Of a stretch of 64,000 bases of DNA, positions 70 to 24,525 are shown piece by piece. The stretch is from positions 3,162,001-3,226,000 of the forward strand of contig JBLDXI010000029.1 of NCBI GenBank assembly GCA_047495785.1, in the 5' to 3' direction. The position numbers and the translations under genes were made by a program. Under the pieces are notes generated by a model that was not told the origin of the DNA, did no database searches, and saw only the letters and a program-made list of their open reading frames with translations. The number at the start of each line of letters is the position of its first letter. The stretch's first letter is position 1. Source of the DNA: Lepidodermella squamata (lineage: Eukaryota; Animalia; Gastrotricha).

Positions 70-3000
70 CTAAAAGAGGGAATCGCTCCTTCTCATCAGC
101 TGCATGAAATCAATCATGAAATGGCCGTGCGCGAAAGTGTTGATGCCATCATCACTGACCCATCGCTTATCATCATAGGGACACAGGGCAACCTTGGAAC
201 TTTGCATCGTAACTAAGTTATGGGAGAATGATCGAATCTGATTGAAATTTATATTGACTACTTTCTTGTTCTTCACGCAATCCCTGTAATGGTCGAATGT
301 CAGCTTCGACTTCACGCCCTGCCGCTTAACTCCCTTCGCCTTTTTTATTTCATCTTTTTCTGAGTACAAAATTGCATAGACCTTGGATCGTGCTCCGGCG
401 AATTCTCGTATTACACGTCCCTTTGCTTCGTCTTTAAATACGCCGTTAGTTTTACAGTTGACAGTTGAGAATAGGAAGTGATCTTTAGGATAATCAGAGA
501 AATCGAATAGGTTTTCGATGGGTTTCATGTCTGTGTAAACGTCTCCAGTTGTGATATGGTAGCACAACGAATCTGTGTCTGTGAAAAGAAGCTTAGCTTT
601 GTCGCCGTACTTTCGTTTGATGACATTGTAGTGGAAGTCGTACATATGCACCTTGGACAAATCCAAAATGGCTGCTCCAACGATAATTGGTCGATCATAA
701 AAGATCTCAGTTTTTGCCATTTCCACGCTGAACAGCTCGTCACTTATCTTCTTAGCGTCCTTGAATGTTGGTTTGTTTACGAGTTTCTGAAGCTTCTTAG
801 GGCAAGTAACCAGTTTTAAGTCAATGCGATTCCGAACGTTCTCACAAGTTTTACCGAAAATGACGTTATTCATCAGTTTGAAAAACCCCTTCTCAAATTC
901 ATTGCTAGCCTCTTTTCGCTTTCGAGTATTGAATGCGATATAGGGCTCGGCCCAATTGCTCTGTTTGAACTTCAAAGCTCGGTGCACCTTTTTCAGAACT
1001 AGACCATTATCAAGAGCTTGCTGTAGCGCGCGATAGTGCATGACGTAATGTTTCTTGTCGTTCAGGTTTTGTGTTAGCTTTTTCACCTTCGCCGGCCTGT
1101 TAAGTCCTAATTGCTTATGCAGATCTTGCATGTGAGGGCTCGGTTCGCAAAGAATATGCTCTGGACAGAACGGATAGTCATTATGTGAGTCATGAAGCCT
1201 TGCAGGATAGTCGATATCAACCTCCAGCATGTACCCGAATTCGTCTTGGTCCCCAAGTGACTTCACAAAATCTTTGGTGATTGTTTCAGGGCCAATCCAT
1301 TCGAAGTCTTTCTGCGGTAACCACTGGGTCATCGCGAAAGAATAAAGAGCGTTGGCGTCCCAATACATTATAAACGATTTCGGAGCATTTGCGTCATAGT
1401 CTGTCATACCCTCGTTATTAGCCTTCGCGTACCTCCCAGGAATAACAGCTATACCGCCTCTTATGCCTTTTTCAACGAATTCAAGCATCTCCTTATTATC
1501 AAAGAGATCCAGTTCAACACGTGTGTATTTCAACATCGCGTCCCAACTTAACCCAGGTGCACCTAAATAATGCGCCGGGTCCAGATCGTAATAGCTTTTG
1601 CAGGTGTCTCGAAAACTGTCAAAACAATCTGCTAACAAGAGAACATCTGTTTTCAAATACAGGTCGTGGTAGTCTTTCAGAGTTTTGCAATTCAGTTTTG
1701 ACCAAACGGCTTGTGCGTGTTCATAATCCTCGTCAGATATAGAAGTTATTTCGATTTTGTTATCATCAAGCGAACAAGAATTTAGTCTGCATGAGAAATG
1801 TGACTTATTCGGTAGCTGAGTTTCATTCAGTTTGTCGAGGCTATCTATATAATCGTACGGATACACTCCCTTACGAAGTAGCAGGGATCTTTGTTCAGTT
1901 GTGAACTTAGAAAGCTGTTCATCAAAATGAGCGAATCTCTTTCCCGATTTTTTCAGATTACTGACTATCTGGTCCAGGCTTTCACTCATAAACTGAAACG
2001 TATCGATAAATCGCAGTTTGCCTATACTAAAACTTAAATACTTTTCCGAGGAATTAGCTATGACGTCAATCGTCAACAGGTTTGGTCTTTTCTTTTTGTC
2101 TTCTTTTTTGAAATTTGCAATCTTTTCTCCATTGATTTCGTTTACTACTTTTCCGGCTGCCTGCATTATCAAGTGCGAATCGTACCCACTCAGGTTATGA
2201 AAAACAACCGGGATGAAAGAATGCTTGAGATTCAAATTCAGATTGCAGGCATTATGAGCAGCTCCCCTGAAACGGCCTGTAAGATGGTCATGATCGCGGA
2301 CTTTATCGTCGCCCAAGGCGCTTCGGCAAACATGGCAGTGCTGTGCATTATCATAACTTTGTTGCTCTTGTTGAGATAACACCATGTCTTTATTGGTTTC
2401 CTGGATAAATGTCCTCAAACTGTATTGCTTTTTAATCAAGAATCTCAGGAACTGCTCCGCACAATTCGCCCCTTCAAACTGCCAATACTTCGAACGGATC
2501 TCAGGTACCTTACTAGCCAGTAAACATCCGAAGGAATTCGCAGCATGGTTCTGATAAATCAAGGACCTACCCTTTTGAACATCGGAATTCGTTAGCGTAG
2601 TCTCCGCATCACAATAGAAAACGAACGGTACTTCAAGCTGCTTGTAGTAATTTTTGAAAATAACTCGGCTACCTTTCGGAGGAAACTTCACTATGACGTT
2701 GCCATTTACTATGCAATTATGCTCTTTAAGCTTTATTTCGCTGTCGAATCCAGTCAGACACTGTAAGCACCAATGCTTTTTGTGCTGATCAGAACTAGGT
2801 AGCAACCGGCTCAAATTTTTTATCCAGCTGAAGTGTGCTATCACCTTAGCACCGTCTCTGAGAGTTGTTCGCAGAAGGTTAACTTCTTGGGCGTAAGGTT
2901 TCTTCGACGCGTAGTATGAAATAAGGCGATGACAACCATCTTTTTCTTTGTATTCAATCACGTTGATCTTTATCCTATTCTGATCTTCAAGATTTGAAAT

Positions 3001-4113
3001 ATCGTTCCACGAAATGGGAAACTTGATACCGTCATGTTTCAGTTCATTTTTAAATAACTTGTACTTGGATGTTTCCTGTGCATTTTTATCTACTGGATGC
3101 AAGCAAGCCAGCATGCTCCAGATTATGCATTCATCGTCGGTGTTTTTAACATTTATAACGGCCTTTTTATCAGCAATGAACTTCGGTGTTGGAATGTAAG
3201 ATCCTGTCCCTAACGGGCAGTAGCTGAAAGCACAAACACGGAGTCGCGAAATGTTTTGGAAGATCCATCCGGAGCCGCGCTGCTCGTAATTCTCAATGGC
3301 ACCACCAAGTTGAGAGAAGTGATGGTCTACAACGCTCCCTATGTCATCATATTTCCTGATAACTGGGGCAGCCTTTACAGCGGAAGACCATTTATGTTCT
3401 GATTTACTATTGTTCTCTTTTTTCCAATTCAAATCAGCGTTAAACACTATTTTGATGTTATCATTTTGCTCTAATTTTTCTTGCACGTAGTTAACAACTG
3501 ATTCCCTAGCCTTTTCGGTAAATAGATGGAAATCACTTCCTGAATTATGAGCTTCAATGTCTAACCTATAAAGGATATTCTTGAAATGCTCGGGATTTTT
3601 CTGCTCATTAAATTCCATATAATTGTTATCCTCAAGAGAGTTAATGCGCTCGATATAATTGTAGCCTTCGGCAATCAACTTGTTGTACGTTGGTCCACCC
3701 CATTTGATGAATTTCAAAGTCTTAGGATTTATGACATGATTTTCTTTCTGCCCTCTGAACACCATTTCACCAGCAGCATTCAAGAAATAGCCATCTTTAC
3801 GCAGCCTCTGATAGTCCTGGCTGCCCCTTTTTATCTTGCTCACACCTCGTTTCATAAGCTGATTATTCGCTTCGTCATAGAAAAACTCCTTTTCAAGTTT
3901 TTTGAAGTTGGACGAACCGATAGAAATATATTTGTTTGTGATAGGATTTAATACTGTTTTCCTTTGGGTTCTCTCGTAAGGCATCCCACCCTTCGTCCAA
4001 CGGTTATCTTTTAATTCAAAACCCTTCCTCAATAGCGCATTGTATGCTCGGCCACCAACCTTAATACGACGACCGTTAGGTCCCATTACATTGGTTTCAC
4101 TGTTGTCGGTCAT
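70..4113 (-). CDS. polB: Protein-primed family B DNA polymerase (pPolB) with inserted endonuclease VII-like Zn domain
   Basis: ExoI FYCDAET, ExoII FHNLSGYD, ExoIII YLKTDV; polymerase motifs YWDANALY, KLMNNVIFGK, FTDTDS; CHVC..VRDHDHLTGRFRGAAHNACNL EndoVII-like insert; 1347 aa uninterrupted. Confidence 0.97.
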   Translation of the reverse strand: MTDNSETNVMGPNGRRIKVGGRAYNALLRKGFELKDNRWTKGGMPYERTQRKTVLNPITNKYISIGSSNFKKLEKEFFYDEANNQLMKRGVSKIKRGSQDYQRLRKDGYFLNAAGEMVFRGQKENHVINPKTLKFIKWGGPTYNKLIAEGYNYIERINSLEDNNYMEFNEQKNPEHFKNILYRLDIEAHNSGSDFHLFTEKARESVVNYVQEKLEQNDNIKIVFNADLNWKKENNSKSEHKWSSAVKAAPVIRKYDDIGSVVDHHFSQLGGAIENYEQRGSGWIFQNISRLRVCAFSYCPLGTGSYIPTPKFIADKKAVINVKNTDDECIIWSMLACLHPVDKNAQETSKYKLFKNELKHDGIKFPISWNDISNLEDQNRIKINVIEYKEKDGCHRLISYYASKKPYAQEVNLLRTTLRDGAKVIAHFSWIKNLSRLLPSSDQHKKHWCLQCLTGFDSEIKLKEHNCIVNGNVIVKFPPKGSRVIFKNYYKQLEVPFVFYCDAETTLTNSDVQKGRSLIYQNHAANSFGCLLASKVPEIRSKYWQFEGANCAEQFLRFLIKKQYSLRTFIQETNKDMVLSQQEQQSYDNAQHCHVCRSALGDDKVRDHDHLTGRFRGAAHNACNLNLNLKHSFIPVVFHNLSGYDSHLIMQAAGKVVNEINGEKIANFKKEDKKKRPNLLTIDVIANSSEKYLSFSIGKLRFIDTFQFMSESLDQIVSNLKKSGKRFAHFDEQLSKFTTEQRSLLLRKGVYPYDYIDSLDKLNETQLPNKSHFSCRLNSCSLDDNKIEITSISDEDYEHAQAVWSKLNCKTLKDYHDLYLKTDVLLLADCFDSFRDTCKSYYDLDPAHYLGAPGLSWDAMLKYTRVELDLFDNKEMLEFVEKGIRGGIAVIPGRYAKANNEGMTDYDANAPKSFIMYWDANALYSFAMTQWLPQKDFEWIGPETITKDFVKSLGDQDEFGYMLEVDIDYPARLHDSHNDYPFCPEHILCEPSPHMQDLHKQLGLNRPAKVKKLTQNLNDKKHYVMHYRALQQALDNGLVLKKVHRALKFKQSNWAEPYIAFNTRKRKEASNEFEKGFFKLMNNVIFGKTCENVRNRIDLKLVTCPKKLQKLVNKPTFKDAKKISDELFSVEMAKTEIFYDRPIIVGAAILDLSKVHMYDFHYNVIKRKYGDKAKLLFTDTDSLCYHITTGDVYTDMKPIENLFDFSDYPKDHFLFSTVNCKTNGVFKDEAKGRVIREFAGARSKVYAILYSEKDEIKKAKGVKRQGVKSKLTFDHYRDCVKNKKVVNINFNQIRSFSHNLVTMQSSKVALCPYDDKRWVSDDGINTFAHGHFMIDFMQLMRRSDSLF

Positions 4114-4205
4114 GATTGTATATATTATACTAAGAAAATAATCTTTAAGTAATTTTCCGCAATTTAAGAAAATCTTATATAGTTTTTTTCTAATGATAAT
4201 ATATA

Positions 4206-4505
4206 ATGACTACAAACCCGATTAAGCAAAGAGGTCGCCCGAAGAAATATCTGACTGAAGAAGAACGCGAGACAGGCTATCGTGATCAGCATCGTATAGC
4301 TTGCAAAAACTACTGGAAGAAAACTATGGAAGTAGTTAGAGCAAGTCGTGGACAGGGAAAATGTCATGAAGTAACTTCACAAATGGAAGGAGCGATCACA
4401 AGTGACAGAATGTGTGAGCCTAAGTCTGAAAACCTTACGACGAAGGATATAGAGGAAATTATAAATCAAATGTTGGCAACAAAACTGCAAAAATTGCTCT
4501 CATAG
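4206..4505 (+). CDS. Small basic protein with AT-hook motif
   Basis: KQRGRPKK AT-hook core; TCTA at 4189-4192, 13 nt before the ATG. Confidence 0.65.
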   Translation: MTTNPIKQRGRPKKYLTEEERETGYRDQHRIACKNYWKKTMEVVRASRGQGKCHEVTSQMEGAITSDRMCEPKSENLTTKDIEEIINQMLATKLQKLLS

Positions 4506-4530
4506 GCTTCACTGTGCGGTCATGATTGAA

Positions 4531-5952
4531 CTAATCCAACAAGTTATCAGCGGGCTCCCAAGTCGGCTTATCATATCCTGCCCATTTGACGTAAACCATT
4601 TCTTTACCTTTAACTTTCTTCCTTCTCAAAATCTTTTCAACCCGGTAAAGGTTTTCTTGCTGTTGGGAAGATTTCTGCAATTCCTGTTCGTAAAAGCTAC
4701 CTACTACTGGTTCACCATCTAGAGCCTCGATTTTATAGGTTCTAGGAATGGTTTCGTTAACCTTGACGACTTTAAGAAGCTCTTCACTCCATGAAGGGTG
4801 GAAACCTTTTTCAAAGGTCTCTTTCAGTCGGCTGATCCTCACTATGTCACCAACAGCGAATTTGGGCTTAAGTAACTTTTTTTCCTCTGATTCCGCGTAC
4901 AAATTGTTGTGAACGATGTGTCTATTCTTTGGATCTATCGCCTGAGTTGGCGTCATTCGAATCGATCTGTGCTTAGTAAGGTTGTACTCTCGAACTAGGT
5001 CATCTAATATTGCAACCCAATTACGTGAGTTGTTAAGTGTAAAGCGTTTCCACATTCTAGTTTTAAGAGTCCTGTTAAACCTCTCGATCATAGGGTTATG
5101 AAAATTTTCATAGGTAGAGTACCGATTCACCTTATTTGCTTTCAACCATTTAGTGAAGATTGAATTATAAAATTCACTGCCCTCATCGACCCAAATATTT
5201 TTAGGCTTTCGTCGGCTTGTCTTGATAACTGATGAGAAGGCATCGAAAACACTTTTTGCGTCTTTTAATTTCAGTGGGACGGCCCACGCATATCTGCTGA
5301 AGCAGCATATCACGGTCAAAATGTACTTATAGCCATTATTGTCATCGGTCAAGTCGTTCATGAAGACAATGTCCATGCCCCATGTGTCGTCAACGTTATG
5401 CACATAAACGCGACGTCTTGGAAACCGCTTTCTTGCGGGTTTATGAAGCTCCTCAGCTAATGTTTCAAACTTCATTTTGCTAACTGTTTCTGATCGCGGC
5501 GCCTCTTGTTTTGTCTTTCGCTTCGGAATTTGTTGCGAGTAGCTAACAGGTTTCCTATCTCGAAGAGCCATGCCTTTCCCTTGCAGATGGTCAGCGATTC
5601 CACCTTCAACGAACGTTTTGTAGACAAATGCTGCCATAGCCCTCTCATAACCACTTTTCGATCGATCACTAGCAATCCTGAGTGCCTTGTCTGCAAGAAT
5701 TCTATCGCTAACGGTGCGTCGCTCTCTGTCTTTGTAAAAGTGATAAGCAGCGTCATGTTCTCTGGCTGCCTCGTCCAACTCATTTATACCTCTGTAGCCC
5801 TGGCTCATTCTTTGAACAAAATGTGTTCCTGGGCCAGCGTAGCTATATGACTGCTTATTGTTATAAGACCCTCCAGGAACGGTTTCTCCTTGAACGGGAT
5901 AACTCGGTAAATGGAATTCCACCGGCAAATTGTTAATTATTCTGTCAAACAT
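4531..5952 (-). CDS. Fusion of parvovirus-type phospholipase A2 domain, retroviral-like (rve) integrase and chromodomain
   Basis: N-terminal YAGPGT Ca-loop and LDEAAREHDAAY...D catalytic motif; integrase DDE in WGMDIV / WVDEGSEF / MIERFNRTLK; C-terminal YRVEKIL...VKWAGYDKPTWEP chromodomain. Confidence 0.93.
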   Translation of the reverse strand: MFDRIINNLPVEFHLPSYPVQGETVPGGSYNNKQSYSYAGPGTHFVQRMSQGYRGINELDEAAREHDAAYHFYKDRERRTVSDRILADKALRIASDRSKSGYERAMAAFVYKTFVEGGIADHLQGKGMALRDRKPVSYSQQIPKRKTKQEAPRSETVSKMKFETLAEELHKPARKRFPRRRVYVHNVDDTWGMDIVFMNDLTDDNNGYKYILTVICCFSRYAWAVPLKLKDAKSVFDAFSSVIKTSRRKPKNIWVDEGSEFYNSIFTKWLKANKVNRYSTYENFHNPMIERFNRTLKTRMWKRFTLNNSRNWVAILDDLVREYNLTKHRSIRMTPTQAIDPKNRHIVHNNLYAESEEKKLLKPKFAVGDIVRISRLKETFEKGFHPSWSEELLKVVKVNETIPRTYKIEALDGEPVVGSFYEQELQKSSQQQENLYRVEKILRRKKVKGKEMVYVKWAGYDKPTWEPADNLLD

Positions 5953-5988
5953 TATTCATTTGGACTTGAAATTCTAAATAAAGAGCAA

Positions 5989-6681
5989 ATGATCAATTGG
6001 GACAGCATCGTTCAATCACAACGACAGGAGTACAAAAATGGATCTCCCTTTTTCCCTCAGCATCCTTCTCGATGTCTTATTATTGGACCGTCCGGGACCG
6101 GAAAGACTTCAGATCTGTTGACAATACTGCATAACTCCTTTTTTCACAAGATCTACTTATATTGTAAAACTCTTGATGAGGACAAGTACGAGTACCTGAT
6201 TAAGCTTCAGAAACAGAAGGAAGACATTCTTTCAAAGCAAGGAATTTCAGTAAACCTTGTTCACTCTTCCAATGACATTTCTGAAGTCATGCCTCTTGAA
6301 GGCCTAGATAAAAGTTACCAGCATGCTTATATATTCGACGATATTTGCATGGAGCAAAAGAGGCTGCAAGAAACACATATCGGTGCAATGTGGATAAGAT
6401 GCCGAAAGTACAACGCGTCAGCTTTTTATCTTTCGCAGTCATATTTTAAGATCCCAAAGACAATTAGGGATAATGCCGATTTTGTTGTGCTGAAGAAGCT
6501 GGCAGACAACAGGGAGCTGAGCATAATTCATCGAATATACGCCCCCTCAATTAAGACAACTGAATTTATTGCCAAGTACAATGAAGCCGTTAGCCTTCCT
6601 CATGGTTCGTTTATCATTGACGGTCAAAGCAAGCCACAGTGTCTTCGACTTAGAGCTAATTACGCTTCAATCTTCGCCTAA
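5989..6681 (+). CDS. A32/FtsK-like DNA packaging ATPase
   Basis: Walker A GPSGTGKT, Walker B YIFDD, RCRKYN and LSQSYFKIPKTIRDN motifs. ATG 5989 preferred over 5911 because it avoids overlap with the integrase and has TCTA 12 nt upstream. Confidence 0.93.
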   Translation: MINWDSIVQSQRQEYKNGSPFFPQHPSRCLIIGPSGTGKTSDLLTILHNSFFHKIYLYCKTLDEDKYEYLIKLQKQKEDILSKQGISVNLVHSSNDISEVMPLEGLDKSYQHAYIFDDICMEQKRLQETHIGAMWIRCRKYNASAFYLSQSYFKIPKTIRDNADFVVLKKLADNRELSIIHRIYAPSIKTTEFIAKYNEAVSLPHGSFIIDGQSKPQCLRLRANYASIFA

Positions 6682-6881
6682 TCATTTTTAACTATTAAAA
6701 ATTAGTTTAAATTATCTATCAAACAGTTTGAATTATCTTGGCTTCACTGATTATCTCCAGTATAAGATGAGTTCAACTGAGCGTTCAATGGGCGATCATT
6801 AGGCGTTCAACAAGCGATCATGTGGCTAACGAGGAGCGACCGCTGGGCGAACAAGGAGCGATTTATTCTAGCCAGAGTGAT

Positions 6882-7925
6882 ATGCCGCTACGCGAATTAA
6901 CAACTGATGAACAAATTCGAATTCTTGAAGATTTAGATAAGCAGGAGAAGATGTACGACCGACACTTGGCCATGGTTAAAGGTGATGTATATGCTTTAAA
7001 GTATAAGCATAGTGTAAATGTTGAGCCCGATCCCCTTACAGCTTTGCAAGAGACTTACAGGCAGATGCCAACTGTGGAGGCAATAAGATCCGTTGCCAAG
7101 GAGCTCAAACAAACAGCAAAGAGAAGCTTACCAACAGCTAATCACCCGCATCACCTAGAAGCGGTATTACCAAAGGCGGAACCGACAACTGAAGAGGCGA
7201 AGGAATCAGTGGAGAACATAGTTTTGAAGAGACATAACTTCCCCACAGCTAAAGAAATTGAAGAGGCTGGGGCTGACCCCGCGCATATTATTGTATCTCT
7301 TTCGCACTATAACAAAAATGTTTTGGGCTCCCAACTAGCTCAGCTCACTAAAAAAGGATACAAAGACTCTCCACAGTATCAATCGATTCAAAATGATATA
7401 CAGATTTTGAAAAACTTCAAGAACTCGTTGCTTGAGACATTTGAGAATCAAAGGGTGCTACTTGAGAAAACTGGTACAGGTATATCCAACAATTATTTGA
7501 AGATTGGTAGGTTTTACGCCAGAAAAGACGACATAAGGCGAGGGGTTTTAAGGATTCGCAAGAAGAATAAAGGTAAAGTGCAAGGTTTAGCCGATATAGA
7601 CATAAGTGATGGTGTCAAACGATTGCTCTTGAAAAGGTACAATCCGAAGGTGAACTTTTCTAAGCAAGACTATGATCAATACCAAAAAATTTGTGAACTG
7701 ACTGGATATCGACCAAAACCCCATTCTAAAATCTGGAACAGAATTTACGTGACTGATGTTGTTGATGCCCAAAAGAGGCTCGTAAACGCGATTGGTGAAA
7801 TCAGAGCGGGAAACAATAACGCTGAAATATATAACGAAGTTGTGAGTATTGCAGATTTTCTTTTGAAGAACAATAGACTGACCAAAGCTGAATACGAAAA
7901 TCTAATAACAGTGGTAAATGGGTGA
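6882..7925 (+). CDS. Conserved Polinton protein of unknown function
   Basis: Long ORF between ATPase and penton; C-terminal RLxxxxGExxAGNNN..NEV..I.D.L motif recalled from Polinton proteins; first ATG at 6882 with TCTA 11 nt upstream. Confidence 0.7.
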   Translation: MPLRELTTDEQIRILEDLDKQEKMYDRHLAMVKGDVYALKYKHSVNVEPDPLTALQETYRQMPTVEAIRSVAKELKQTAKRSLPTANHPHHLEAVLPKAEPTTEEAKESVENIVLKRHNFPTAKEIEEAGADPAHIIVSLSHYNKNVLGSQLAQLTKKGYKDSPQYQSIQNDIQILKNFKNSLLETFENQRVLLEKTGTGISNNYLKIGRFYARKDDIRRGVLRIRKKNKGKVQGLADIDISDGVKRLLLKRYNPKVNFSKQDYDQYQKICELTGYRPKPHSKIWNRIYVTDVVDAQKRLVNAIGEIRAGNNNAEIYNEVVSIADFLLKNNRLTKAEYENLITVVNG

Positions 7926-8658
7926 TCCAATATTTCTGCCTTTGGAATATTACTGCAATAACAGGTCGGACGCCAGCAACGTCATCGATCGTTACCTAAA
8001 TGATAAGATCGATTTCACAAAGCGCAGCATCGCCGTTTCATACATTCACTTTTACGATGTTTTTTATAATGTATCACAGGCTTCAGGTAATAGTAAGCTC
8101 AGATATAAAGATCCAGAAGATGCGACTTTTGAAATTCGATTTCCTGATGGAACCTTCACTTTTCGTGATTATAACAATTATATTCACTTTGTTATGAAAG
8201 GAAACGGCCATTTCAAGACCATCGACGGCTCAGAAGTTTACGGCATAAGCTTATCTGTCAATACTGTTCTGAATAAACTGAGCTTTCGAATTCAACCAGG
8301 TTACGCTCTTCTGATCGAGCATGATGCTACGTCTGAATTTCTAGGTGTAGACAAAGGCGAATTCCGAGCAGATTTTAATGGGCAGCATATTCCTAACATC
8401 ACGATGTCAAATGACTCAATGTTTGTTCACTGTAACGTCGTCAATAATAGCCTAGTCCCGGAGGTTAGTGATGTCATCTTCACCTGTCCGATTAACAAAA
8501 ATTTCGGCCAACACGTTAACATTGTTCCAAATGAGAAACGTTACTTGTCCTGTACGAATGCTAATACACAAAACATAAAAATAACGCTCACCACCCAGGC
8601 TGGTGCACCACTGGAGATGACTGAAAGAAAATGGGGTATTGGTCTTGATATTCGCTAG
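7918..8658 (+). CDS. Minor capsid protein (penton-like, single jelly-roll)
   Basis: FPDGTFTFRDYNNYI and MFVHCNVV...SDVIF...FGQHVNIVP motifs typical of Polinton PX/penton; beta-rich; position in the morphogenetic block. Confidence 0.85.
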   Translation: MGDPIFLPLEYYCNNRSDASNVIDRYLNDKIDFTKRSIAVSYIHFYDVFYNVSQASGNSKLRYKDPEDATFEIRFPDGTFTFRDYNNYIHFVMKGNGHFKTIDGSEVYGISLSVNTVLNKLSFRIQPGYALLIEHDATSEFLGVDKGEFRADFNGQHIPNITMSNDSMFVHCNVVNNSLVPEVSDVIFTCPINKNFGQHVNIVPNEKRYLSCTNANTQNIKITLTTQAGAPLEMTERKWGIGLDIR

Positions 8659-8681
8659 CTTTTTCTAGTTACTTTGTTATA

Positions 8682-8981
8682 ATGAAAAATCGCAGAACAA
8701 AAGCATATGTCGTAGGACGCGGTTACGTAGACATCGCAAGAAATATGCTCGACAAATTGACTGGTGTCTTACCGGTTCAGACTTTAGCCAAATCAGCTCT
8801 ATCAAAGGCAGCGGAAGTTGCCGGTGACAAAATAGGTGCCTATGCCGCAAATAAACTTGCAGACAAAGTGATGCCGACAAAGCCAGCTGAGCGCTCTATT
8901 CAGGCTATTGAGGAGCTTGAGAAGAAAATCAAAAGAGACATCGATAATTACACCGGAACAGGCTTTAAGCTGATACGCTAA
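8682..8981 (+). CDS. Small Ala/Lys-rich amphipathic protein, putative virion core or membrane-active protein
   Basis: Lies between penton and MCP; GxG sites VVGRG and YTGTG flank an amphipathic A/K-rich helix; TCTA 14 nt upstream. Confidence 0.65.
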   Translation: MKNRRTKAYVVGRGYVDIARNMLDKLTGVLPVQTLAKSALSKAAEVAGDKIGAYAANKLADKVMPTKPAERSIQAIEELEKKIKRDIDNYTGTGFKLIR

Positions 8982-9000
8982 ATATCTAATGCCTATTTAA

Positions 9001-10374
9001 ATGCTTCAATCCGAAATAGTGAACTGTCTCTTTGAGAGCCCGACCATAGATGATCGGCAGTTCGAAAGGAAAAGCTGGGCCGAGGTTTGTGCAACAAGTT
9101 TTATACAGGATCAGCCCTCTCAGCCTTCTCGCATTATCTTTTCTACATATAACTTGCGTGAGTTGTTTTTATTGCCGAGGGAAGCCTATATCCAGTTGAC
9201 TGTTGAGTTCCGACGAAACGATAGTCAGGCTTTCAAAGCAACTGACAAGTACGCAATTAGGAACCATGTTATATCCATGTTTGAAACAGTTGAAGTGCAA
9301 GTAGGTGATAATGATAACCAGGTAGAGCAAACACGTTATAACGAACACTGGAGCTCGTTGCTGGGCGTTATTCACTGGTCTGATGACTATGCGCGAAGTC
9401 TTGGGGAAGAATCTCTTTTCGCCAGAGACTACCCAGCCCATGTAAATTATGAAATGACTCCTGAAGTTACAGCAGAAAGTTTCGATCCTGCGAAGAACAG
9501 CTGCAACGAGGGACTACTCTTGAGATCTTTGTATGTTAAGGATCATAAGATGGTTGTCACACTTTACTTAAGGGACATTCCTTTCTTCCAAAATTATTTT
9601 GGGATGTGGACCAAGGCGAGATTTCGTGTGATATTAACACCAAATTACACCAAACCCATAGTCGCAGCCATAGGGAAAAACGATGATTTGCCGGAAGGGA
9701 TGCATTTCCAGATTTCGTCAGCTTATATGTTTATTCCGGAAGTCACATTGATGCCTGAAACTAGAGCACGCATTTTGAAAGCCTTCAATACGGGTCTCAC
9801 GAAACTTTACAAATGGCAATCGCTAGAATGCTTTCAGAGCCCCCAGTTTGCTGTGAATAGTTCATCGGTACAATGGACAATCACATCTGAGATGAAAAAA
9901 CCAAGCTGGCTATATATTGTATTCTTGCAAGACTTCTCAGACGCAGAGTATCAAACAAAACTGACACAAATTTACACTCAGTGGAATATATTCAGCTACT
10001 CTCTCATGATAAACAATAAGGAGGCGTTTGCCGAGGCCAACATGAACTTTTCCCGCTTCAACGCTCACCGGCTCTATAACTATATTAAGGAAAACATGAA
10101 CCATTTCAATGATCGTGAAAGCACGAACACTGGTAGTCAGCTTAGTTACCTTGATTTTTGTCGATTTTACCGTTTCCTGGCATTCAATCTGGAAAGTGTA
10201 GATGCCGGTGCTATATATAATTCACGCGGTGACCAAAGCGTGAGCGTCACATTTAAAGCTAGAATCAGCCCTGTCGATAAGCCATTAGTTATGTTTTGTT
10301 TCATTTTTAGAGAAAAAGAAATAGGCTTCAACTACAAAGACGACAAGCTCGAGATAAGCCTTAACATGCTGTGA
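9001..10374 (+). CDS. Major capsid protein (double jelly-roll, hexon-like)
   Basis: 457 aa beta-rich ORF with LLPREAYIQL, SMFETVEVQV, KPSWLYIVF and YRFLAFNL segments resembling Polinton PY/MCP; syntenic position. Confidence 0.87.
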   Translation: MLQSEIVNCLFESPTIDDRQFERKSWAEVCATSFIQDQPSQPSRIIFSTYNLRELFLLPREAYIQLTVEFRRNDSQAFKATDKYAIRNHVISMFETVEVQVGDNDNQVEQTRYNEHWSSLLGVIHWSDDYARSLGEESLFARDYPAHVNYEMTPEVTAESFDPAKNSCNEGLLLRSLYVKDHKMVVTLYLRDIPFFQNYFGMWTKARFRVILTPNYTKPIVAAIGKNDDLPEGMHFQISSAYMFIPEVTLMPETRARILKAFNTGLTKLYKWQSLECFQSPQFAVNSSSVQWTITSEMKKPSWLYIVFLQDFSDAEYQTKLTQIYTQWNIFSYSLMINNKEAFAEANMNFSRFNAHRLYNYIKENMNHFNDRESTNTGSQLSYLDFCRFYRFLAFNLESVDAGAIYNSRGDQSVSVTFKARISPVDKPLVMFCFIFREKEIGFNYKDDKLEISLNML

Positions 10375-10395
10375 ATTTTCTAACTTAGAATAATA

Positions 10396-10974
10396 ATGAC
10401 TAAATACATTCCATTCGACATTAAACTAACAGAGACCCAGAGAAGAGCATTTCAAAAACCAGGCCAAGTTGTCTTGCGTTTCACAATTGATCAGCTTCTT
10501 GCAGATCCAAATGGTTCCAAGTTGTTGTTGACGCAAAGGCAGATAGATAAAGTAATGAAGAGCAAACAAAGGATGAAAGGGCTTGATATTAAACTGAGCA
10601 AAACTCAGCTCCGGAAGAATCAGTCTGGTGGGTTCCTGTTACCAGCGCTTGCCGCAGCTTCTAAATTTATAGCACCTGTAGCTGTTGCAGCGCTGAGCGG
10701 CCTTGCCAGTTCCCTCGCCAGTACAGCAGCTGACAAGATCGTAGGCAAAGGCGTGTCGCTGACAATACCAAAAGAGGATTTAAATGAACTGCAAAAGGCG
10801 GTTTCGCTTCTGGAATCCCGACAAATTGTGCCTGCTGGCAGTAGTAAGGCAATTAAAAGCCATATAGAGCAACAGGGTGGAGCTTTTATCTTGCCGCTTG
10901 TATCAAGCTTGCTGGGTGCATTCCTTCCGACCTTATTCGGAAAAGGGGTTTACATGCCGTGGGAAAAAAACTGA
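10396..10974 (+). CDS. Adenovirus pX/mu-like core protein with two GG-F/A hydrophobic segments
   Basis: QSGGFLLPALAAA and QQGGAFILPLVSSLLG resemble the adenoviral pX GGFLPAL segment; IVGKG and LFGKG adenain-type sites. Confidence 0.7.
   Translation: MTKYIPFDIKLTETQRRAFQKPGQVVLRFTIDQLLADPNGSKLLLTQRQIDKVMKSKQRMKGLDIKLSKTQLRKNQSGGFLLPALAAASKFIAPVAVAALSGLASSLASTAADKIVGKGVSLTIPKEDLNELQKAVSLLESRQIVPAGSSKAIKSHIEQQGGAFILPLVSSLLGAFLPTLFGKGVYMPWEKN
10965..10974 (+). promoter_or_regulatory. Candidate -1 ribosomal frameshift slippery site A_AAA_AAC followed by TGA
   Basis: Frame-0 codons GAA AAA AAC TGA; the heptamer fits X_XXY_YYZ and the -1 frame is the protease. Confidence 0.7.
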
Positions 10975-11417
10975 TAAATACCGGGTTTTATCCCTTATCC
11001 AATCTTGAGATAACCGAAACTTTGAAGAGGCTCCTCGGAAAAGACTTCAAGGGCTGTTATGCTCGGGACGACCTTCCTGCTACACTTCAACGAGGATATT
11101 ACGTCATTAACCTGGACGATAAAGTTAACCGCGGAAGTCATTGGGTCTCAATGGCTGTGAAGTCGACTGAAATAATCTACTTCGATAGCTTCGGGTTTAT
11201 ATGCCCTAATGAGATCATTAAGCGTCGCGGCAAACGAGTAATTTGGTATTCCACACATGATATACAACATCCTGGCTCTGTTGCATGTGGCTTCTATGCC
11301 ATTTACTTTCTAAGAGAATTAGGTAAAGGTAGGGATAAGTTAGCTATTTTGCTAGACTTCAATAACACCGGGTCACCGCACAATGATGACTTACTGAAAA
11401 ATCTATTGTTAAGCTAG
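10966..11417 (+). CDS. Adenain-like cysteine protease, probably expressed by -1 frameshift from the upstream ORF
   Basis: Catalytic set GSHWV (His), YFDSFG (Asp), IQ..SVACG (Gln, Cys). No in-frame ATG between the TAA at 10854 and the catalytic His. Confidence 0.9.
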
Positions 11418-11419
11418 AT

Positions 11420-11599
11420 ATGTATTGCCTGCATTGTAGGAAAAACACTAAATCAGTGAATGAGCAGCAATTAGCCACTCGTAATAACCGAGCTCTCATG
11501 ACAGGATCTTGTACACTCTGCGGTATGACAAAGTATAAATTCATAAGAATGTTAAAGAGAAACGCCGTCGTAGATAAAAAGGATGCAAGCGTCCGTTGA
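11420..11599 (+). CDS. 59-aa zinc-ribbon protein (DUF5679-like), below the ORF-track cutoff
   Basis: MYCLHCRKNT...RNNRALMTGSCTLCGMTKYKFI; two CxxC pairs; TCTA 14 nt upstream. Confidence 0.75.
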   Translation: MYCLHCRKNTKSVNEQQLATRNNRALMTGSCTLCGMTKYKFIRMLKRNAVVDKKDASVR

Positions 11600-12089
11600 A
11601 GATGAATTGAAGAGACTGATGGATAATTTTGAGAATTCTAAATCAGTGAGAAAGACATTTTCTACCATGCCTTACGTGTATTGCGATGCGTGTGCCACAG
11701 AACTTTTGCTTGACGAAAGGGCGAATTTCAACGTATGCCCAAACTGCGGTTTATGTTATCCATACTGTGAGCACTCCCCGCCATTCAAATTAGTACCTTA
11801 CAAACGAAAATGGCATTTAATGACTGTAATTAAAAAGCGCGGTATAGAAATGCTACCTCCTCAACTTGAGAGGCTGATGTCGAGCTTTATCAAGTTTGAC
11901 TCGGGCTATGCAGAACTCTTTCCCGATCAAAATATGATGCACCTTGACTTTGTTATCAAAGCTCTGGCTCAGGAACATGGATACGACCTTGTGGCACAGA
12001 GCGTACACGTGAAATCGGTTAACGATAAGACGCTGAGGCAATGGCGGAATAAGTATAATCTAGTCATCGCTCATTATGAGATCGAATGA
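11583..12089 (+). CDS. VLTF3-like (poxvirus A2/NCLDV late transcription factor) protein
   Basis: CDAC-x13-CPNCG zinc ribbon followed by YKRKWHL and NMMHLDFVIKAL, resembling the YKR..HF and NFL.Y.YVL motifs of VLTF3. Confidence 0.65.
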   Translation: MQASVEDELKRLMDNFENSKSVRKTFSTMPYVYCDACATELLLDERANFNVCPNCGLCYPYCEHSPPFKLVPYKRKWHLMTVIKKRGIEMLPPQLERLMSSFIKFDSGYAELFPDQNMMHLDFVIKALAQEHGYDLVAQSVHVKSVNDKTLRQWRNKYNLVIAHYEIE

Positions 12090-12735
12090 AATATTCATTC
12101 CAAGTGAATGGTTTGAAAATGCACGACAGGCAGCAATTTATTTGAGGGCAGACGGCAGTACTCCATTCGCGGCAAACCTAAACGCGAATAGCTACTGCAT
12201 CGAAAATTTGGGCGGCCCCGTTTTCGACAACGATGCTGTTAGTAAAAATTGGGTTGAGCGAAGTTGTTTAATGATTCAATCCGATCAGACTGTTGACTTT
12301 AAAAATGCTAGGCTCACGAACATCCATCCACCAATAAATCCAAACGATGGCGCGATTCGGGCTTCCAGATTGATATGCTCTGGCAAGGTTTCTCTTGCGC
12401 GCGAGAATAAGCTAAGTTTTGATAACATGATTTCCGGAATGCCTGAAGTAAGCGATAGCTTAGTGTTTCGGGCAGACGTAACAGCCAGAGTGGAAATGTG
12501 GTTCCGGCTGGACGACAACAGAGCCACATCCTTCACCCTTGATTTCTTCAAAAACAACGGTAACTTGTTCTCGAAATACTTCAACTATAACAATGTTAAT
12601 TTGGAGAGCAGCAATGAATACTGTTCCTTTATAGAGCAATTCCGATTGAATGATAGCTTAACGGTTATTGCAGCAGCTGACGAAAGCATACAACTGTCAT
12701 ACATTTTGATTATTTCTAACCTAAAGAATACGTGA
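12076..12735 (+). CDS. Putative virion fibre/spike protein
   Basis: YLRADGSTPFAANLNAN...IENLGGPVFDNDAVSKNWV and a second LTNIHPPINPNDGA repeat resemble tail-fibre shaft repeats; beta-rich C-terminal head. Confidence 0.55.
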   Translation: MRSNEIFIPSEWFENARQAAIYLRADGSTPFAANLNANSYCIENLGGPVFDNDAVSKNWVERSCLMIQSDQTVDFKNARLTNIHPPINPNDGAIRASRLICSGKVSLARENKLSFDNMISGMPEVSDSLVFRADVTARVEMWFRLDDNRATSFTLDFFKNNGNLFSKYFNYNNVNLESSNEYCSFIEQFRLNDSLTVIAAADESIQLSYILIISNLKNT

Positions 12736-12749
12736 TACATATATTCAGA

Positions 12750-13331
12750 ATGAATGACAACCAGCTAAAAACAGTAGAAAGTATTTACCCCACTGCTCCC
12801 AGACTACAGATGTCTTCTACTCAAGAGTTCAGGCTTGCTGAGCTCCGGCGCCTAAATGATGTTTTCAACACAGAAATATCGAAAAGAAAGAAGCTTTATA
12901 ATAGATATTCCCGTTTTTCGTCAATTTGCAAAGCTACTATTCATGGAATAACGGGCGGCACAACATCGCTTGCGATTGGTGGAATCGCACTACTGTCACT
13001 TGGCCTCCCAACCGGTATCATGTTGGAGATTACTGCAGCTTCGGGCGGCATGGTCATACTTGTTCTCAACCTGCTTGACTTAAAGTTCGAAAGGAAAGCC
13101 GAAAAACATGAAAGAATCGCCACTCTTGCCATGTCGAAAGCCAACTCAATAGGCGACATGATCAAAACAGCCCTGGAAGATAACCACATCAGTGACACTG
13201 AGTATCAGGTTATTATGAGAGAAAACGAGAAATTCCATGATATGAAAAAGTTGCTCCAGAAGAGTTTAAATTGTGATCGCACGCAAATATTTCTTGAGGA
13301 ACTCAAAAAGCATGGTGTGAACGTCCCTTGA
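12750..13331 (+). CDS. Two-TM helical membrane protein of Polinton type
   Basis: Central Gly-rich hydrophobic hairpin flanked by FRLAEL...KLYNRY and KHERIATLAMSKANSI...ALEDNHISDTEY. Confidence 0.65.
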   Translation: MNDNQLKTVESIYPTAPRLQMSSTQEFRLAELRRLNDVFNTEISKRKKLYNRYSRFSSICKATIHGITGGTTSLAIGGIALLSLGLPTGIMLEITAASGGMVILVLNLLDLKFERKAEKHERIATLAMSKANSIGDMIKTALEDNHISDTEYQVIMRENEKFHDMKKLLQKSLNCDRTQIFLEELKKHGVNVP

Positions 13332-13332
13332 G

Positions 13333-13587
13333 CTAGCGAAAAGGCGAGTAAAATATCACACGTTTCTTTGGTGCTCTAACTGCTTTAGCATGATTGCCTT
13401 TGATTTTCGAAGGCTTTTTAATTCTATCCCTATTCACAAAATACCCTAGCAACGCGGCGATTACACTCAATGCAACAAAAATGCGTTGAAGCTGGGTGTT
13501 CGTCCTTAAGCAGTCGATCTGAAGTTCTCTAACAAGCACCTTAATATATGAGATTATTTCTTCTTGGGCACTCGAGTAAGTATTCAT
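13333..13587 (-). CDS. Small single-TM protein
   Basis: ATG-initiated, tightly packed ORF; IFVALSVIAALLGYFV followed by a basic tail. Confidence 0.5.
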   Translation of the reverse strand: MNTYSSAQEEIISYIKVLVRELQIDCLRTNTQLQRIFVALSVIAALLGYFVNRDRIKKPSKIKGNHAKAVRAPKKRVIFYSPFR

Positions 13588-13605
13588 TAAGTATTAAAAC
13601 GATTT

Positions 13606-13941
13606 TTATTTTTCTCGTCGCGCCCTCATTTCAGCTATGAATTTCTCTATATCTGACTTCCTTTTCTGTCGCCGTTCAGACAGCTCAGCTTTGCGCCTCT
13701 GGCTCTGTAACTTACGGTCGTTATCTTCTTTTTCCCTTGCAGTCAGCAAATCGCTGTATTTCTGTTCAATGACAGCCTTCTCGTTCTCCAAAGTCTTAAT
13801 ACGGGTATTTGAGGACTGTCTCTTGAGCGAGGAATACTGATCGCTGATAATCTCAACTTCCTGCTTCAGTTTGTCAATATCTTGATCCTTCTCGTCGACG
13901 ATTTCATCGACCTCTGTGTATGAAAGAAATCCTTTCTCCAT
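13606..13941 (-). CDS. Coiled-coil protein
   Basis: E/K/Q/R-rich heptads; tightly packed with neighbours. Confidence 0.55.
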   Translation of the reverse strand: MEKGFLSYTEVDEIVDEKDQDIDKLKQEVEIISDQYSSLKRQSSNTRIKTLENEKAVIEQKYSDLLTAREKEDNDRKLQSQRRKAELSERRQKRKSDIEKFIAEMRARREK

Positions 13942-13948
13942 GATTATA

Positions 13949-14206
13949 TTATTTACCGAGAAATCTTCTTCTTAGCAGGTAAGCTTCCTTGCCGCCGACA
14001 TGAGAGACATCCTTTGGAATCAGACTAACGTTGATGCCACCGCCCTTCAGCGATGAGACGCGTTGTTGTTTGCCTAAATGATAGTAAATCGTGCCTCTGC
14101 TGAGTCCCACTTCAGCTGCGATTTTATCTACTGTCTTAGAGCTATTCTGATATTCATGGATTGCTTGGCTGATTTTGTCGGGATTTATTACCTTGCGACG
14201 AAGCAT
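13949..14206 (-). CDS. Helix-turn-helix DNA-binding protein
   Basis: TVDKIAAEVGLSRGTIYYHL HTH signature. Confidence 0.7.
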   Translation of the reverse strand: MLRRKVINPDKISQAIHEYQNSSKTVDKIAAEVGLSRGTIYYHLGKQQRVSSLKGGGINVSLIPKDVSHVGGKEAYLLRRRFLGK

Positions 14207-14865
14207 CTTATATTTATTTGAGAAATTAAAATATTTCGATATTTCGATGTTCCATTATTCAAATGTTTGAACGTTCAGTCATATATATGTTGAAATTAAC
14301 AGCGTTGTCGATTTCCTTTTCAAGTGTTCGAACATTTCAAAATTAAAACATTAGAAGGTTCGAATAATTGCTTTATCGAGAAGTTTAGCTTTGAACATCG
14401 CTGGATCAGTAAATAATTATTCTGAATCAGATGAAGGCATGTGAAGTTCTAGGCAAGAACAGATACTTGACAACAGTGGCAGCAGTAAGTTCCGATTTCA
14501 ATTCTTCGTCGCCAACAATTTCTCCACAGACGAGACATACCGCCTCATTGCAAAAGAGGTATATCGAATGTAGGCATATCGAAGCATTCTTCAGTACTTT
14601 GAGATTCAGTTATCAGGATGCTCTCTTGAGTAGTCTCGTCAGGTCCTCGCATCAGTTAGAGAAGACGGATTTCTCTCCAAGAGCAAAAAATGCAACCAAT
14701 TGCAAGAGTAAGCGTGCTTAGGGTGATTACGAATGCAGTGCACAAACGAGCTGACGTTAAATAATTTATCCTCTGCCCTCGATCTAAATCGGTCGATATT
14801 ATCCCGGCAACGAGAGAAAACATGTAGCTGAATCAGCTGGCAGTTTTCTATATACGAAAGTTTTT

Positions 14866-14979
14866 ATGGGATTAGAGTGCCCGTTTTGTAAGCACAGTGA
14901 ATCTACCGTTGAATTAACTGACTGCCTTTCCTGTCCTTACTGCGGCAGAAAATATCCTGTTTCTCCGTTTCAAGTTTGA
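14866..14979 (+). CDS. 37-aa zinc-ribbon microprotein
   Basis: MGLECPFCKHSESTVELTDCLSCPYCGRKYPVSPFQV; TCTA 15 nt upstream. Confidence 0.55.
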   Translation: MGLECPFCKHSESTVELTDCLSCPYCGRKYPVSPFQV

Positions 14980-15037
14980 AAAGCGTTTGAAAATCGTCGA
15001 TATTGCCTTCATAGTTTTCCCATATACAGGTTACGAA

Positions 15038-15169
15038 ATGAATCAGCAACAACCATGCGAACCTTGCGGACCCTGGGGGCCTGGTGGACCTTATGATGGA
15101 GCCCCGAGGACTTGTAGTGGAGCCTACGGACCTGATGGACCTTGTGAACCATGCGGGCCTACTCGTTGA
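15038..15169 (+). CDS. 43-aa Gly/Pro/Cys-rich micro-ORF
   Basis: PCEPCGP at both ends with GPx triplets between; could instead be the antisense shadow of a decayed collagen-like repeat. Confidence 0.3.
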   Translation: MNQQQPCEPCGPWGPGGPYDGAPRTCSGAYGPDGPCEPCGPTR

Positions 15170-15192
15170 TAAAATACGACCAATATTTGACT

Positions 15193-15260
15193 TTTGCCAT
15201 TAATATATTTAAGGAAAATTAATATCTTTGCCATTAAAATATTTAAGAGAAATAAATATC
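15193..15260. repeat. Tandem 34-bp AT-rich repeat, two copies
   Basis: TTTGCCATTAATATATTTAAGGAAAATTAATATC / TTTGCCATTAAAATATTTAAGAGAAATAAATATC. Confidence 0.8.
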
Positions 15261-15918
15261 TGACCGGTCGGAAACCTTGCTACTTACAATGAGACGGCAT
15301 GTCATAGCTTTCCGGTATTTTCTTGGGTATTATTACACAGCACCTCTTCAGTCGCAGTATATCGTTTTATTTGCGTTATGATTATGACTCTTAAGCTAAT
15401 GTTTCATAATGGGGCCTGAAGTAGAGTTAGATTTGAATATTCCAACTGGATAAAAGCGTATATCTAACAACTTATAATTAATGTTCAATGTTCAAATATG
15501 ACTGTAATGATAGGTACAGGCCTTAAGCATATGGATCCAGGCTTGATCCTGTTTCTCGGTTCCCGTTTCAACAGTTCCATTCTCAGCGATGCCCAACAGT
15601 ATTGCCACAGTCATTGCAAACTACCGTGCCCATTATGTCATCCTCCACAATATGTTTGTCTCCAGTATGTTCGCAGTCGTTTCCAGGCATGGTGAACTTG
15701 GTAATTTTTCAAATTAATTCTAAAGGAAACAGTTGACAGCATGTAAAGGGGCTATGATTCGGCAAATTCGGCATAAAATTTCACCGCGAGAGCACACATA
15801 TAGAAGAATCGAACTACCAACCTTGTTCACACACTGGCTCGTCATACATTATGCGTCATCATCGATTTTGAGCAGTGGGTTCGATATAGAGATGACGCAT
15901 TGCAGCAACCGTTAAATA

Positions 15919-16071
15919 ATGAATCAGCGAGAAACAATAGTTTTTATTGACGCGAATTCATTTTATCGGTCTCCCTGCTGCGCCTATATCGAATTCTCTG
16001 CTGAAATACTTAACCGCCTGGACTGTCCTTACTGTCCTAAAAAGGTTCTCGACTCTTCAGGTAAGTATTAA
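15919..16071 (+). CDS. 50-aa zinc-ribbon microprotein
   Basis: ...YRSPCCAYIEF...LDCPYCPKKV. Confidence 0.45.
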   Translation: MNQRETIVFIDANSFYRSPCCAYIEFSAEILNRLDCPYCPKKVLDSSGKY

Positions 16072-16119
16072 AATACCTCAGCCTTTTCCTGGATAACTAT
16101 TTCGAAAACAGCTTGCAAT

Positions 16120-16218
16120 ATGCATGATTGCGGTTGTGATGATCCGGATATTATAAACGATGGAACATTTTATGTATGCCAAAACTGTGGCGCGATTGTT
16201 GGGCAGGTCTACGTATGA
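16120..16218 (+). CDS. 32-aa TFIIB-type zinc-ribbon microprotein
   Basis: MHDCGCDDPDIINDGTFYVCQNCGAIVGQVYV, followed by AATAAA at 16221 and again near 16242. Confidence 0.5.
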   Translation: MHDCGCDDPDIINDGTFYVCQNCGAIVGQVYV

Positions 16219-19200: not shown

Positions 19201-19445
19201 CTATTAATGGTTGACATTAATGGCCGGGGCTTTCCAGAAATAACTGCAAATGTCGCCTGTCGAAGGTTGCAAACTCGAGTACAAACTGTTATATTAATTT
19301 ATTATGAAAGCAAAAAAATCACGGCTCTCCGCACTGACGTGGTAGATTTAAAGTTTTTCAAGAGACTAAAAACTAAAAACAACGTATTCTCAGGTTTTTC
19401 AGAAACTCGTACCGTTGGTGGATTAATATTTTCCAAAATACAGCC

Positions 19446-21082: not shown

Positions 21083-21759
21083 TGCTACCATCGATGAATC
21101 AGAGGCAGTTTCTATATTCCAATTTAACCAAGTTCCAACCAATATAACCATATCGCTGAACCATATCGACATAATTAAGCACAAACAACTCATCTTCGAT
21201 TCAAATAACGAATTTTACAACTTAATTATTTTCCCGCATTCACTATGTGGCGAGAACAAGGCTAGTATTCCCACTGGCAATAACACGTTAATAACGATCT
21301 CTAGTTTATTATTTCAATCTAATAATAAAGCCAGTAGGAATACTAGCCTTGTTCTTCTCGCCACACACTATACAGCTGACACACCTTTTCCCAGTTTTTT
21401 TCAGCAATGCACGAATAACCTGGCAAGATATTTTCGCGGCTATATTTAGCGTATTACTCGTACTAACAAATTAGGCATAAAAGCTGGCCGTTGATTCAAT
21501 AAAATAGAAGATGAAATTAACTTCATTTTTAGAGGAACTGGGTGATCGCTTGCTCTTTATACCGCCGAAATATTACAGAAAGACTTCTGTTACACAAATT
21601 GAAATGTACTTTTTGACAATTATAGGGCTGTTGTGCTCATTAGCTATTCCCGGAGCAATCCACTCACCGGGGCAAGAGTCATATTCAGTCCGTTTTAAAT
21701 TCTATTTGTCCATTTTGGTAGTGATTTGGTAGTGGTAGAAGGGCTTGAATAATCGTAAA

Positions 21760-24481: not shown

Positions 24482-24525
24482 TTTACCTCGGGAACAAATA
24501 AAACAGGACTAGACGTATTTTATTG

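What the first reader, a model, noticed from the sequence alone, without database searches (positions are those of the whole stretch)
10930..11030. Retrovirus-style -1 frameshift appears to fuse the pX-like core protein to the maturation protease
Seen: the core-protein ORF ends TGG GAA AAA AAC TGA, placing A_AAA_AAC (10965-10971) in correct phase directly before the stop. The protease is in the -1 frame, has no ATG upstream of its catalytic His and no TCTA motif. Downstream sequence can pair (TTATC/GATAA and CGG/CCG, ~10982-11015). An adenain-type site LFGK/G lies a few residues before the shift. Known: A_AAA_AAC is an established -1 frameshift heptamer used at retroviral gag-pro junctions. 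Inference: the protease is made sub-stoichiometrically as a transframe fusion, packaged via the core protein and released by self-cleavage, a Gag-Pro logic in a dsDNA element.
Basis: partly seen in the sequence, partly recalled or inferred. Interest (0 to 1): 0.87.

Follow-up and report, generated by a model that had tools for sequence, protein, structure and literature searches.

The report
Polinton frameshift fuses core to protease
In this animal Polinton (a virus-like DNA transposon) the capsid-maturation protease has no ATG start of its own and overlaps the end of the core-protein gene at a conserved slippery run of A's, so it is likely made as a minor core-protease fusion by a -1 frameshift, as retroviruses make Gag-Pro.

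Summary
Observation confirmed. The core ORF ends in an in-phase A_AAA_AAC plus stop. The protease is in the -1 frame, has no ATG before its catalytic His, and lacks the TCTA motif that precedes 9 of the 11 other plus-strand genes. It is not an assembly error: three variant contigs from two runs bridge the site without indels. It is conserved: 11 of 11 closest core homologs end KN, KK or KI; a likely same-contig homolog pair fits only the -1 layout; two distant loci keep an A-run and -1 phase in DNA. Best reading: -1 ribosomal frameshift (0.62). Rivals: polymerase slippage (0.15), non-AUG start (0.13). Not supported: the RNA stimulator (no better than shuffles) and conservation of the exact LFGK/G site. 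Packaging and self-release are untested. Partly anticipated: a 2024 preprint's supplement lists unexplained 'PLA2X-Adenain' fusions in four adintoviruses; its main text names only penton and hexon-adenain shifts. The scan's earlier notes held no Polinton case, only two phage analogues.

The parts
10379..10382 (+). TCTA motif 17 nt before the core ATG; putative promoter/initiator shared by most plus-strand genes, absent before the protease
   Evidence: function inferred
10396..10974 (+). Core (pX/Macc-like) protein ORF, 192 aa, ending PWEKN-stop
   Evidence: pX likeness is weak (Atlas Adeno_PX cluster score 0.85, family on 20% of members); no fold match
10933..10947 (+). LFGK/G, fits the adenain motif (M/I/L)xGxG; G-x-G conserved, P4 residue not
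   Evidence: motif as cited in bioRxiv 10.1101/341131
10959..10961 (+). GTG in the protease frame, in a GCC-GTG-G context (rival non-AUG start)
10965..10971 (+). In-phase slippery heptamer A_AAA_AAC within G-A7-C, directly before TGA (10972-10974)
10982..11016 (+). Weak possible hairpin; not above chance
10971..11417 (+). Adenain-type cysteine protease, 148 aa, in the -1 frame (His57, Asp72, Cys106); no ATG before His57
   Evidence: Pfam Peptidase_C5 E 2.6e-4; model pLDDT 90.5; Foldseek to adenovirus proteinase 1nln E 1.4e-7
9001..10374 (+). Major capsid protein (double jelly roll)
   Evidence: Atlas 0.97 to a DJR-like cluster
7918..8658 (+). Probable penton/minor capsid protein
   Evidence: size and position only; no Pfam hit; inferred
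5989..6681 (+). Packaging ATPase (A32-like)
   Evidence: Pfam Pox_A32 E 3.8e-9
4531..5952 (-). PLA2-like domain + rve integrase + chromodomain
   Evidence: Pfam
70..4113 (-). PolB-like ORF, 1346 aa, with an endonuclease VII-like stretch
   Evidence: polymerase motifs read by eye; no Pfam B2 hit and no PDB sequence hit

Best explanation
The protease of this Polinton has no ATG start or TCTA motif of its own and is likely made from the core-protein mRNA by a -1 ribosomal frameshift at A_AAA_AAC just before the core stop codon, which would give a minority 340-residue core-protease fusion. Shown: the layout, its integrity in other sequencing runs, and its conservation in relatives. Inferred: most ribosomes stop at the UGA and make the 192-aa core protein, while a small fraction slip and read on through the 148-aa protease. 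With no strong RNA structure, the rate is probably low, and a pause at the adjacent stop codon may help. Further inferred and untested: the core part carries the protease into assembling capsids, and cleavage at the conserved G-x-G site a few residues upstream of the junction frees it.
For: No indel in 3 bridging contigs from runs X1 and X3. 12 of 19 variant letters in the protease region are synonymous in the protease frame, against 4 and 2 in the other frames, with no new stop. 11 of 11 closest core homologs end KN (7), KK (3) or KI (1); terminal KN in 12 of 150 homologs vs 5 of 505 background ORFs; the residue before KN can be coded by a codon ending in A in 20 of 20. P0037/P0005 (same source and contig length) are compatible only with the -1 layout and force A_AAA_AAY. 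5 of 6 full-length close protease N-termini fit a close core tail in -1. L111 and L113 show core, in-phase A_AAA_AAA and -1 protease in DNA; in L113 the -1 frame opens only at the A-run. The N-terminal part that no ATG could supply is conserved and forms the first helix and strands of the fold. Ten in-frame core-protease proteins exist in the database. A_AAA_AAC is among the shiftiest heptamers for mammalian ribosomes (PMC5009743) and is the gag-pro site of MMTV, BLV and HTLV (PMC3835772).
Against: No stimulatory structure above chance in the window, L111 or L113. Two close relatives imply poor eukaryotic heptamers, A_AAA_AAG (P0002) and A_AAA_ATY (P0003), while keeping a run of A's. An NTG codon lies at the Pro-Trp junction in most of the close clade, and in this copy it is a GTG in good context. 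In L111 and L113 an internal ATG lies before the catalytic His, though after the conserved LSN motif. About 90 of the 110 distant protease loci (counted by eye) have their own Met and none shows this layout. In one large clade, stop-at-the-run (11), fused (14) and other (5) forms coexist, so its native state is unresolved. Homolog counts are not phylogenetically independent. No raw reads, RNA reads or protein data cover the junction.
Confidence: 0.62

Rival explanations
1. Transcriptional slippage: RNA polymerase stutters on the A-run, so a fraction of core mRNAs are read normally into the protease frame. The same fusion results, by a different mechanism.
For: Every relative examined keeps a run of six or more A's, even where the heptamer is imperfect (P0002, P0003); L111 and L113 have longer runs; no RNA stimulator; the site resembles the potyvirus GA6 slippage motif (PMC7618844, search listing only).
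Against: Slippage does not need the run in codon phase or ending in AAC/AAT, yet KN-stop dominates. Seven A's is short for a cellular polymerase (own knowledge).
Confidence: 0.15
2. The protease has its own, often non-AUG, start overlapping the end of the core gene (GTG 10959, or CTG overlapping the stop), reached by leaky scanning, re-initiation or a separate transcript. No fusion is made.
For: GTG in a GCC-GTG-G context. 6 of 9 close homologs were called from the same NTG-G position. A relative in PMC11071296's supplement (AdintoBK011000) has its adenain annotated from a Met at a comparable overlapping Trp codon.
Against: No TCTA motif upstream. The NTG follows from a conserved Pro-Trp pair and is missing in P0039 (Pro-Phe), L111 and L113, which keep the K-run. 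3 of 9 close homologs were called only from an internal Met. The ATA at 10974 is changed in all 3 bridging contigs. This model does not predict KN-stop.
Confidence: 0.13
3. Splicing joins an upstream exon to the protease frame, as for adenovirus and adomavirus late genes.
For: Adomavirus late ORFs use splice acceptors (bioRxiv 10.1101/341131). A pyrimidine-rich tract precedes the AG at 10944-10945.
Against: The best nearby donor-like site, at 10844, is altered at both G and T in run X3. No joint was seen in this region (contigs only, and the probable RNA run does not cover the junction). Splicing does not explain the conserved KN-stop.
Confidence: 0.05
4. The genes are normally one in-frame ORF, and this copy carries a homopolymer error or a disabling mutation.
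For: In-frame fusions occur among database proteins.
Against: Three divergent contigs from two studies have the same run length; 11 of 11 close homologs end at this point.
Confidence: 0.03

Closest known systems
'PLA2X-Adenain' fusions annotated in Alpha adintoviruses (Buck et al. 2024 preprint, PMC11071296, supplementary protein file)
   Same: A pX-like core protein fused to adenain. For Adinto12800 and Adinto3309 both the short and the fused protein are listed, and Adinto3309's short form ends KN-stop. Several other PLA2X genes there end in KN or a K-run next to an adenain that lacks an N-terminal Met.
   Different: Seen in 4 entries of a cut file and not discussed in the main text, which names only penton and hexon-adenain shifts predicted with KnotInFrame. 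The core here has no PLA2 domain (that domain is on the integrase). No conservation analysis or test is reported in the parts I read.
Beta- and deltaretrovirus gag-pro -1 frameshift (MMTV, BLV, HTLV)
   Same: Same heptamer; structural precursor upstream and protease in the -1 frame (PMC3835772).
   Different: dsDNA element and cysteine protease; no strong pseudoknot or stem-loop found; frameshifting shown experimentally there, not here.
Adenovirus and adomavirus adenain
   Same: Same fold and the same type of G-x-G motifs in a core precursor.
   Different: The adenovirus adenains seen in the supplement begin with their own Met as separate genes.
-1 frameshifts in dsDNA phage genes (lambda gpG/gpGT)
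   Same: A dsDNA virus sets a protein ratio by a -1 shift (PMC5009743; PMC7618472).
   Different: Bacterial ribosome; tail chaperone rather than maturation protease.

Membership tests
Programmed -1 ribosomal frameshift site | In-phase X_XXY_YYZ heptamer | tested here: met
   A_AAA_AAC 10965-10971
Programmed -1 ribosomal frameshift site | Downstream ORF in the -1 frame, open from the site and under selection | tested here: met
Programmed -1 ribosomal frameshift site | Site and phase conserved in relatives | tested here: met
   two close relatives have imperfect heptamers
Programmed -1 ribosomal frameshift site | Stable 3' stimulatory RNA structure a few bases downstream | tested here: not met
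   no better than shuffles in the window, L111 or L113; long-range or protein-dependent stimulators not tested
Programmed -1 ribosomal frameshift site | Shift occurs on the ribosome (transframe product from an unaltered mRNA) | not testable with these tools
   no raw RNA reads or proteomics; all runs are contigs
Polinton / adintovirus | rve integrase with C-terminal chromodomain | tested here: met
Polinton / adintovirus | Packaging ATPase, adenain, double jelly-roll capsid protein | tested here: met
Polinton / adintovirus | Type B DNA polymerase with N-terminal OTU-like domain | tested here: inconclusive
   1346-aa ORF with polymerase-like motifs by eye; no Pfam B2 or OTU hit, no PDB hit
Polinton / adintovirus | Terminal inverted repeats | tested here: inconclusive
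   none found in 1-20000; the left end probably lies outside the window
Adenovirus pX-like core protein | Homology to pX, or presence in virion cores | tested here: inconclusive
   Atlas lead only, 0.85; no Pfam, PDB or fold match
Gag-Pro-like polyprotein | Protease packaged as a fusion and released by self-cleavage | not testable with these tools
   motif fit only; P4 residue not conserved in 10 of 10 homologs

The most novel reading that the evidence does not exclude
A conserved -1 ribosomal frameshift is the general way a broad set of animal Polintons/adintoviruses, and some polinton-like viruses, express their maturation protease: a Gag-Pro-like precursor in a eukaryotic dsDNA virus lineage, working without a classical RNA stimulator. 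It would mean that many database annotations of these proteases (from internal Mets, or as frameshifted pseudogenes) are wrong and that intact elements are undercounted.
Probability: 0.45. Interest if true: 0.8.

Novelty: new variant of a known kind. Interest (0 to 1): 0.62.

Why it matters
A 2023 review describes -1 frameshifting as mainly an RNA-virus phenomenon, also seen in some phages, mobile elements and a few cellular genes (PMC7618472); a conserved case in a eukaryotic dsDNA virus lineage would extend that. It offers a concrete answer to how Polintons dose and package their protease. It changes how 'intact' copies are recognised, since a stop plus a frame change at this junction is the normal state. 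It can be tested with an ordinary reporter assay.

Tried and rejected
No whole genome is held, so other genomic copies could not be read directly. No RNA holder was listed; X2 is only guessed to be RNA and its contigs stop near 10791, which says nothing about protease expression. X4 laid nothing. Locus searches: viral contigs with the protease, P0263 and P0204 confirmed nothing; the metagenome and viral scans with alignment A1 gave 110 distant loci, none with the window's layout; genome contigs gave 2 loci that I did not examine; phage records gave no match. DNA of the close homologs was never obtained, so their junctions are inferred from protein ends. ATA 10974 as a start was rejected. Core fold searches gave nothing meaningful (best Z 5.0, rmsd 2.4, 52 aligned). 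Proteases called as MTLPPHPL or MTPHPL could have true ATG starts or TTG gene calls; unresolved without DNA. Literature searches found no main-text description of a core-adenain frameshift; subscription papers are not covered, and three supplementary archives of PMC11071296 were too large to read and may annotate more such shifts.

Full report
Context. The first 14-16 kb of the window is a Polinton/adintovirus-type element: a PolB-like ORF (70-4113, minus strand), a PLA2-integrase-chromodomain ORF, an A32-like ATPase, a double jelly-roll capsid protein, a 192-aa basic core-like ORF and an adenain-type protease. Beyond it lie host-like genes, one with an AMOP domain. No whole genome is held.

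The core ORF (ATG 10396) ends TGG GAA AAA AAC TGA, with A_AAA_AAC at 10965-10971 in phase. The protease frame is -1, and its first ATG (Met61) follows catalytic His57. The 148-aa product folds confidently (pLDDT 90.5) and matches adenovirus proteinase (E 1.4e-7); residues 8-56 are conserved and structured, so they must be translated. TCTA lies 15-18 nt before the ATG in 9 of the 11 other plus-strand ORFs (10 of all 179 ATGs in 4150-13400, about 2.6 expected from its frequency), and none lies between 10661 and 11175. This suggests, by inference, that the protease has no transcript of its own.

It is not an error. Of 4 runs laid, X1 gave two contigs across the site (depth 708 with 9 substitutions; depth 231 with 4) and X3 gave one (7 substitutions), all with 0 gaps; X2 did not reach the site and X4 laid nothing. 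These are contigs, not raw reads, and X1 may be related to the source sample. Of 19 variant letters in the protease region, 12 are synonymous in the protease frame, against 4 and 2 in the other frames, and none makes a stop.

It is conserved. Among 267 core homologs, the 11 closest end KN (7), KK (3) or KI (1). Terminal KN occurs in 12 of the 150 hits against 5 of 505 background ORFs (binomial p 4e-8, not corrected for relatedness), and in all 20 KN-ending proteins the preceding residue can be coded by a codon ending in A. Close protease homologs begin xGxKKL or similar. P0037 and P0005 share source and contig length; their ends are compatible with 6 codings in the -1 layout, all A_AAA_AAY, and with none in +1. 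Five of six full-length protease starts fit a core tail in -1, but two imply A_AAA_AAG and A_AAA_ATY, which are poor eukaryotic shift sites. In DNA, L111 and L113 (core homologs) show an in-phase A_AAA_AAA near the core end and a -1 protease with no ATG until after its conserved LSN motif; in L113 a stop closes the -1 frame immediately before the A-run. Against generality: about 90 of 110 distant loci have a protease with its own Met and none has this layout (counted by eye), and only 1 of the 7 new loci examined has it. Ten in-frame core-protease proteins were found. In one clade, 11 stop at the K-run, 14 are fused and 5 are otherwise (biased by a protease query). Most lie on very long contigs and may be decayed copies or homopolymer errors, so they show that the fusion is reachable, not what the native state is.

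What is not supported. Downstream folding is no better than shuffled sequence; a simple pseudoknot search was matched by 15, 12 and 12 of 40 shuffles for the window, L111 and L113. LFGK/G fits the adenain motif cited in bioRxiv 10.1101/341131, but 0 of 10 close homologs have M/I/L at P4, although all keep G-x-G. The core's pX likeness is only a lead (nothing).

Mechanism. I favour a -1 ribosomal shift on the core mRNA (0.62), because an in-phase KN-stop is what a tandem-slippage site predicts and what the rivals do not. Polymerase slippage on the A-run (0.15) gives the same fusion and fits the missing stimulator and the imperfect heptamers. A non-AUG start (0.13) has a well-placed GTG, but the codon follows from Pro-Trp and is lost in relatives that keep the run. 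Splicing (0.05) and artefact (0.03) are unlikely. Some form of core-protease fusion therefore stands at about 0.8. Low abundance, packaging through the core part and release at G-x-G are inferred by analogy only.

Prior work, and what I saw of it. PMC11071296: passages and section 16 predict -1 shifts for penton and hexon-adenain. Its supplementary protein file (cut at 4 million characters; searched; part 29 read) has 4 'PLA2X-Adenain' entries, two beside their shorter PLA2X; three archives were unreadable. PMC8502044: passages and sections 7 and 8 define PLA2X and do not mention this shift; its supplement search found nothing. PMC5009743, PMC3835772, PMC7618472, PMC5803895, 10.1101/341131 and 10.64898/2026.07.28.741253: passages only. 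PMC7618844: search listing only. Nine searches found no main-text account of a core-protease shift in Polintons. Earlier scan notes held no Polinton case.

Verdict. The feature is real, conserved and very probably a programmed frame change. It was anticipated in a supplement but, in what I could search, not described or tested. New variant of a known kind; interest 0.62.

Noticed in passing
window 4150-13400: TCTA sits 15-18 nt before the ATG of 9 of 11 plus-strand genes; a similar TTTCTA lies upstream of the core gene in L111 and L113. Possibly an element-specific promoter or initiator giving very short leaders.
   Followed up: partly
window 4531-5952: A PLA2-like domain is fused to the N-terminus of the integrase rather than to the core protein; a 'PLA2-integrase' is also listed in PMC11071296's supplement.
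   Followed up: partly
window 1-14000 vs 19055-20000: In run X1 the element's contigs have depth of about 600-1000 against 42 for the flanking contig; suggests many copies or free virus, but contig depth is no copy number.
   Followed up: no
window 14193-15720: Run X2 (guessed RNA) has contigs up to depth about 300 with poly(A)/poly(T) loose ends at 14193, 15274 and 15455: possibly short, highly expressed transcripts near the element's right end with no long ORF.
   Followed up: no
L011:918-2027, L057:1529-2539, L062:5203-6468, L064:2611-3903: Distant adenain-like proteases fused in frame behind a 200-270-aa domain with a lipase-like serine motif, read by eye.
   Followed up: no
window 11420-11599: A 59-aa cysteine-containing ORF (Pfam DUF5679, E 1e-13) starts 3 nt after the protease stop and has its own TCTA.
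   Followed up: partly
core homologs P0193-P0289: A subclade ends in DF, NF, KF or IF before the stop, beside proteases called as MTLPPHPL; possibly a second, U-rich slippery junction or a stop-start overlap. No DNA was available.
   Followed up: partly
window 14899-14942 and 15991-16034: A 70%-identical 44-nt repeat in the right-end region, which seems to hold short Cys-rich reading frames.
   Followed up: no
window 19499-30784: Host-like ORFs: an AMOP-domain protein, a receptor-like protein with a weak ANF_receptor hit, and several multi-transmembrane ORFs without a Pfam hit where tested.
   Followed up: partly
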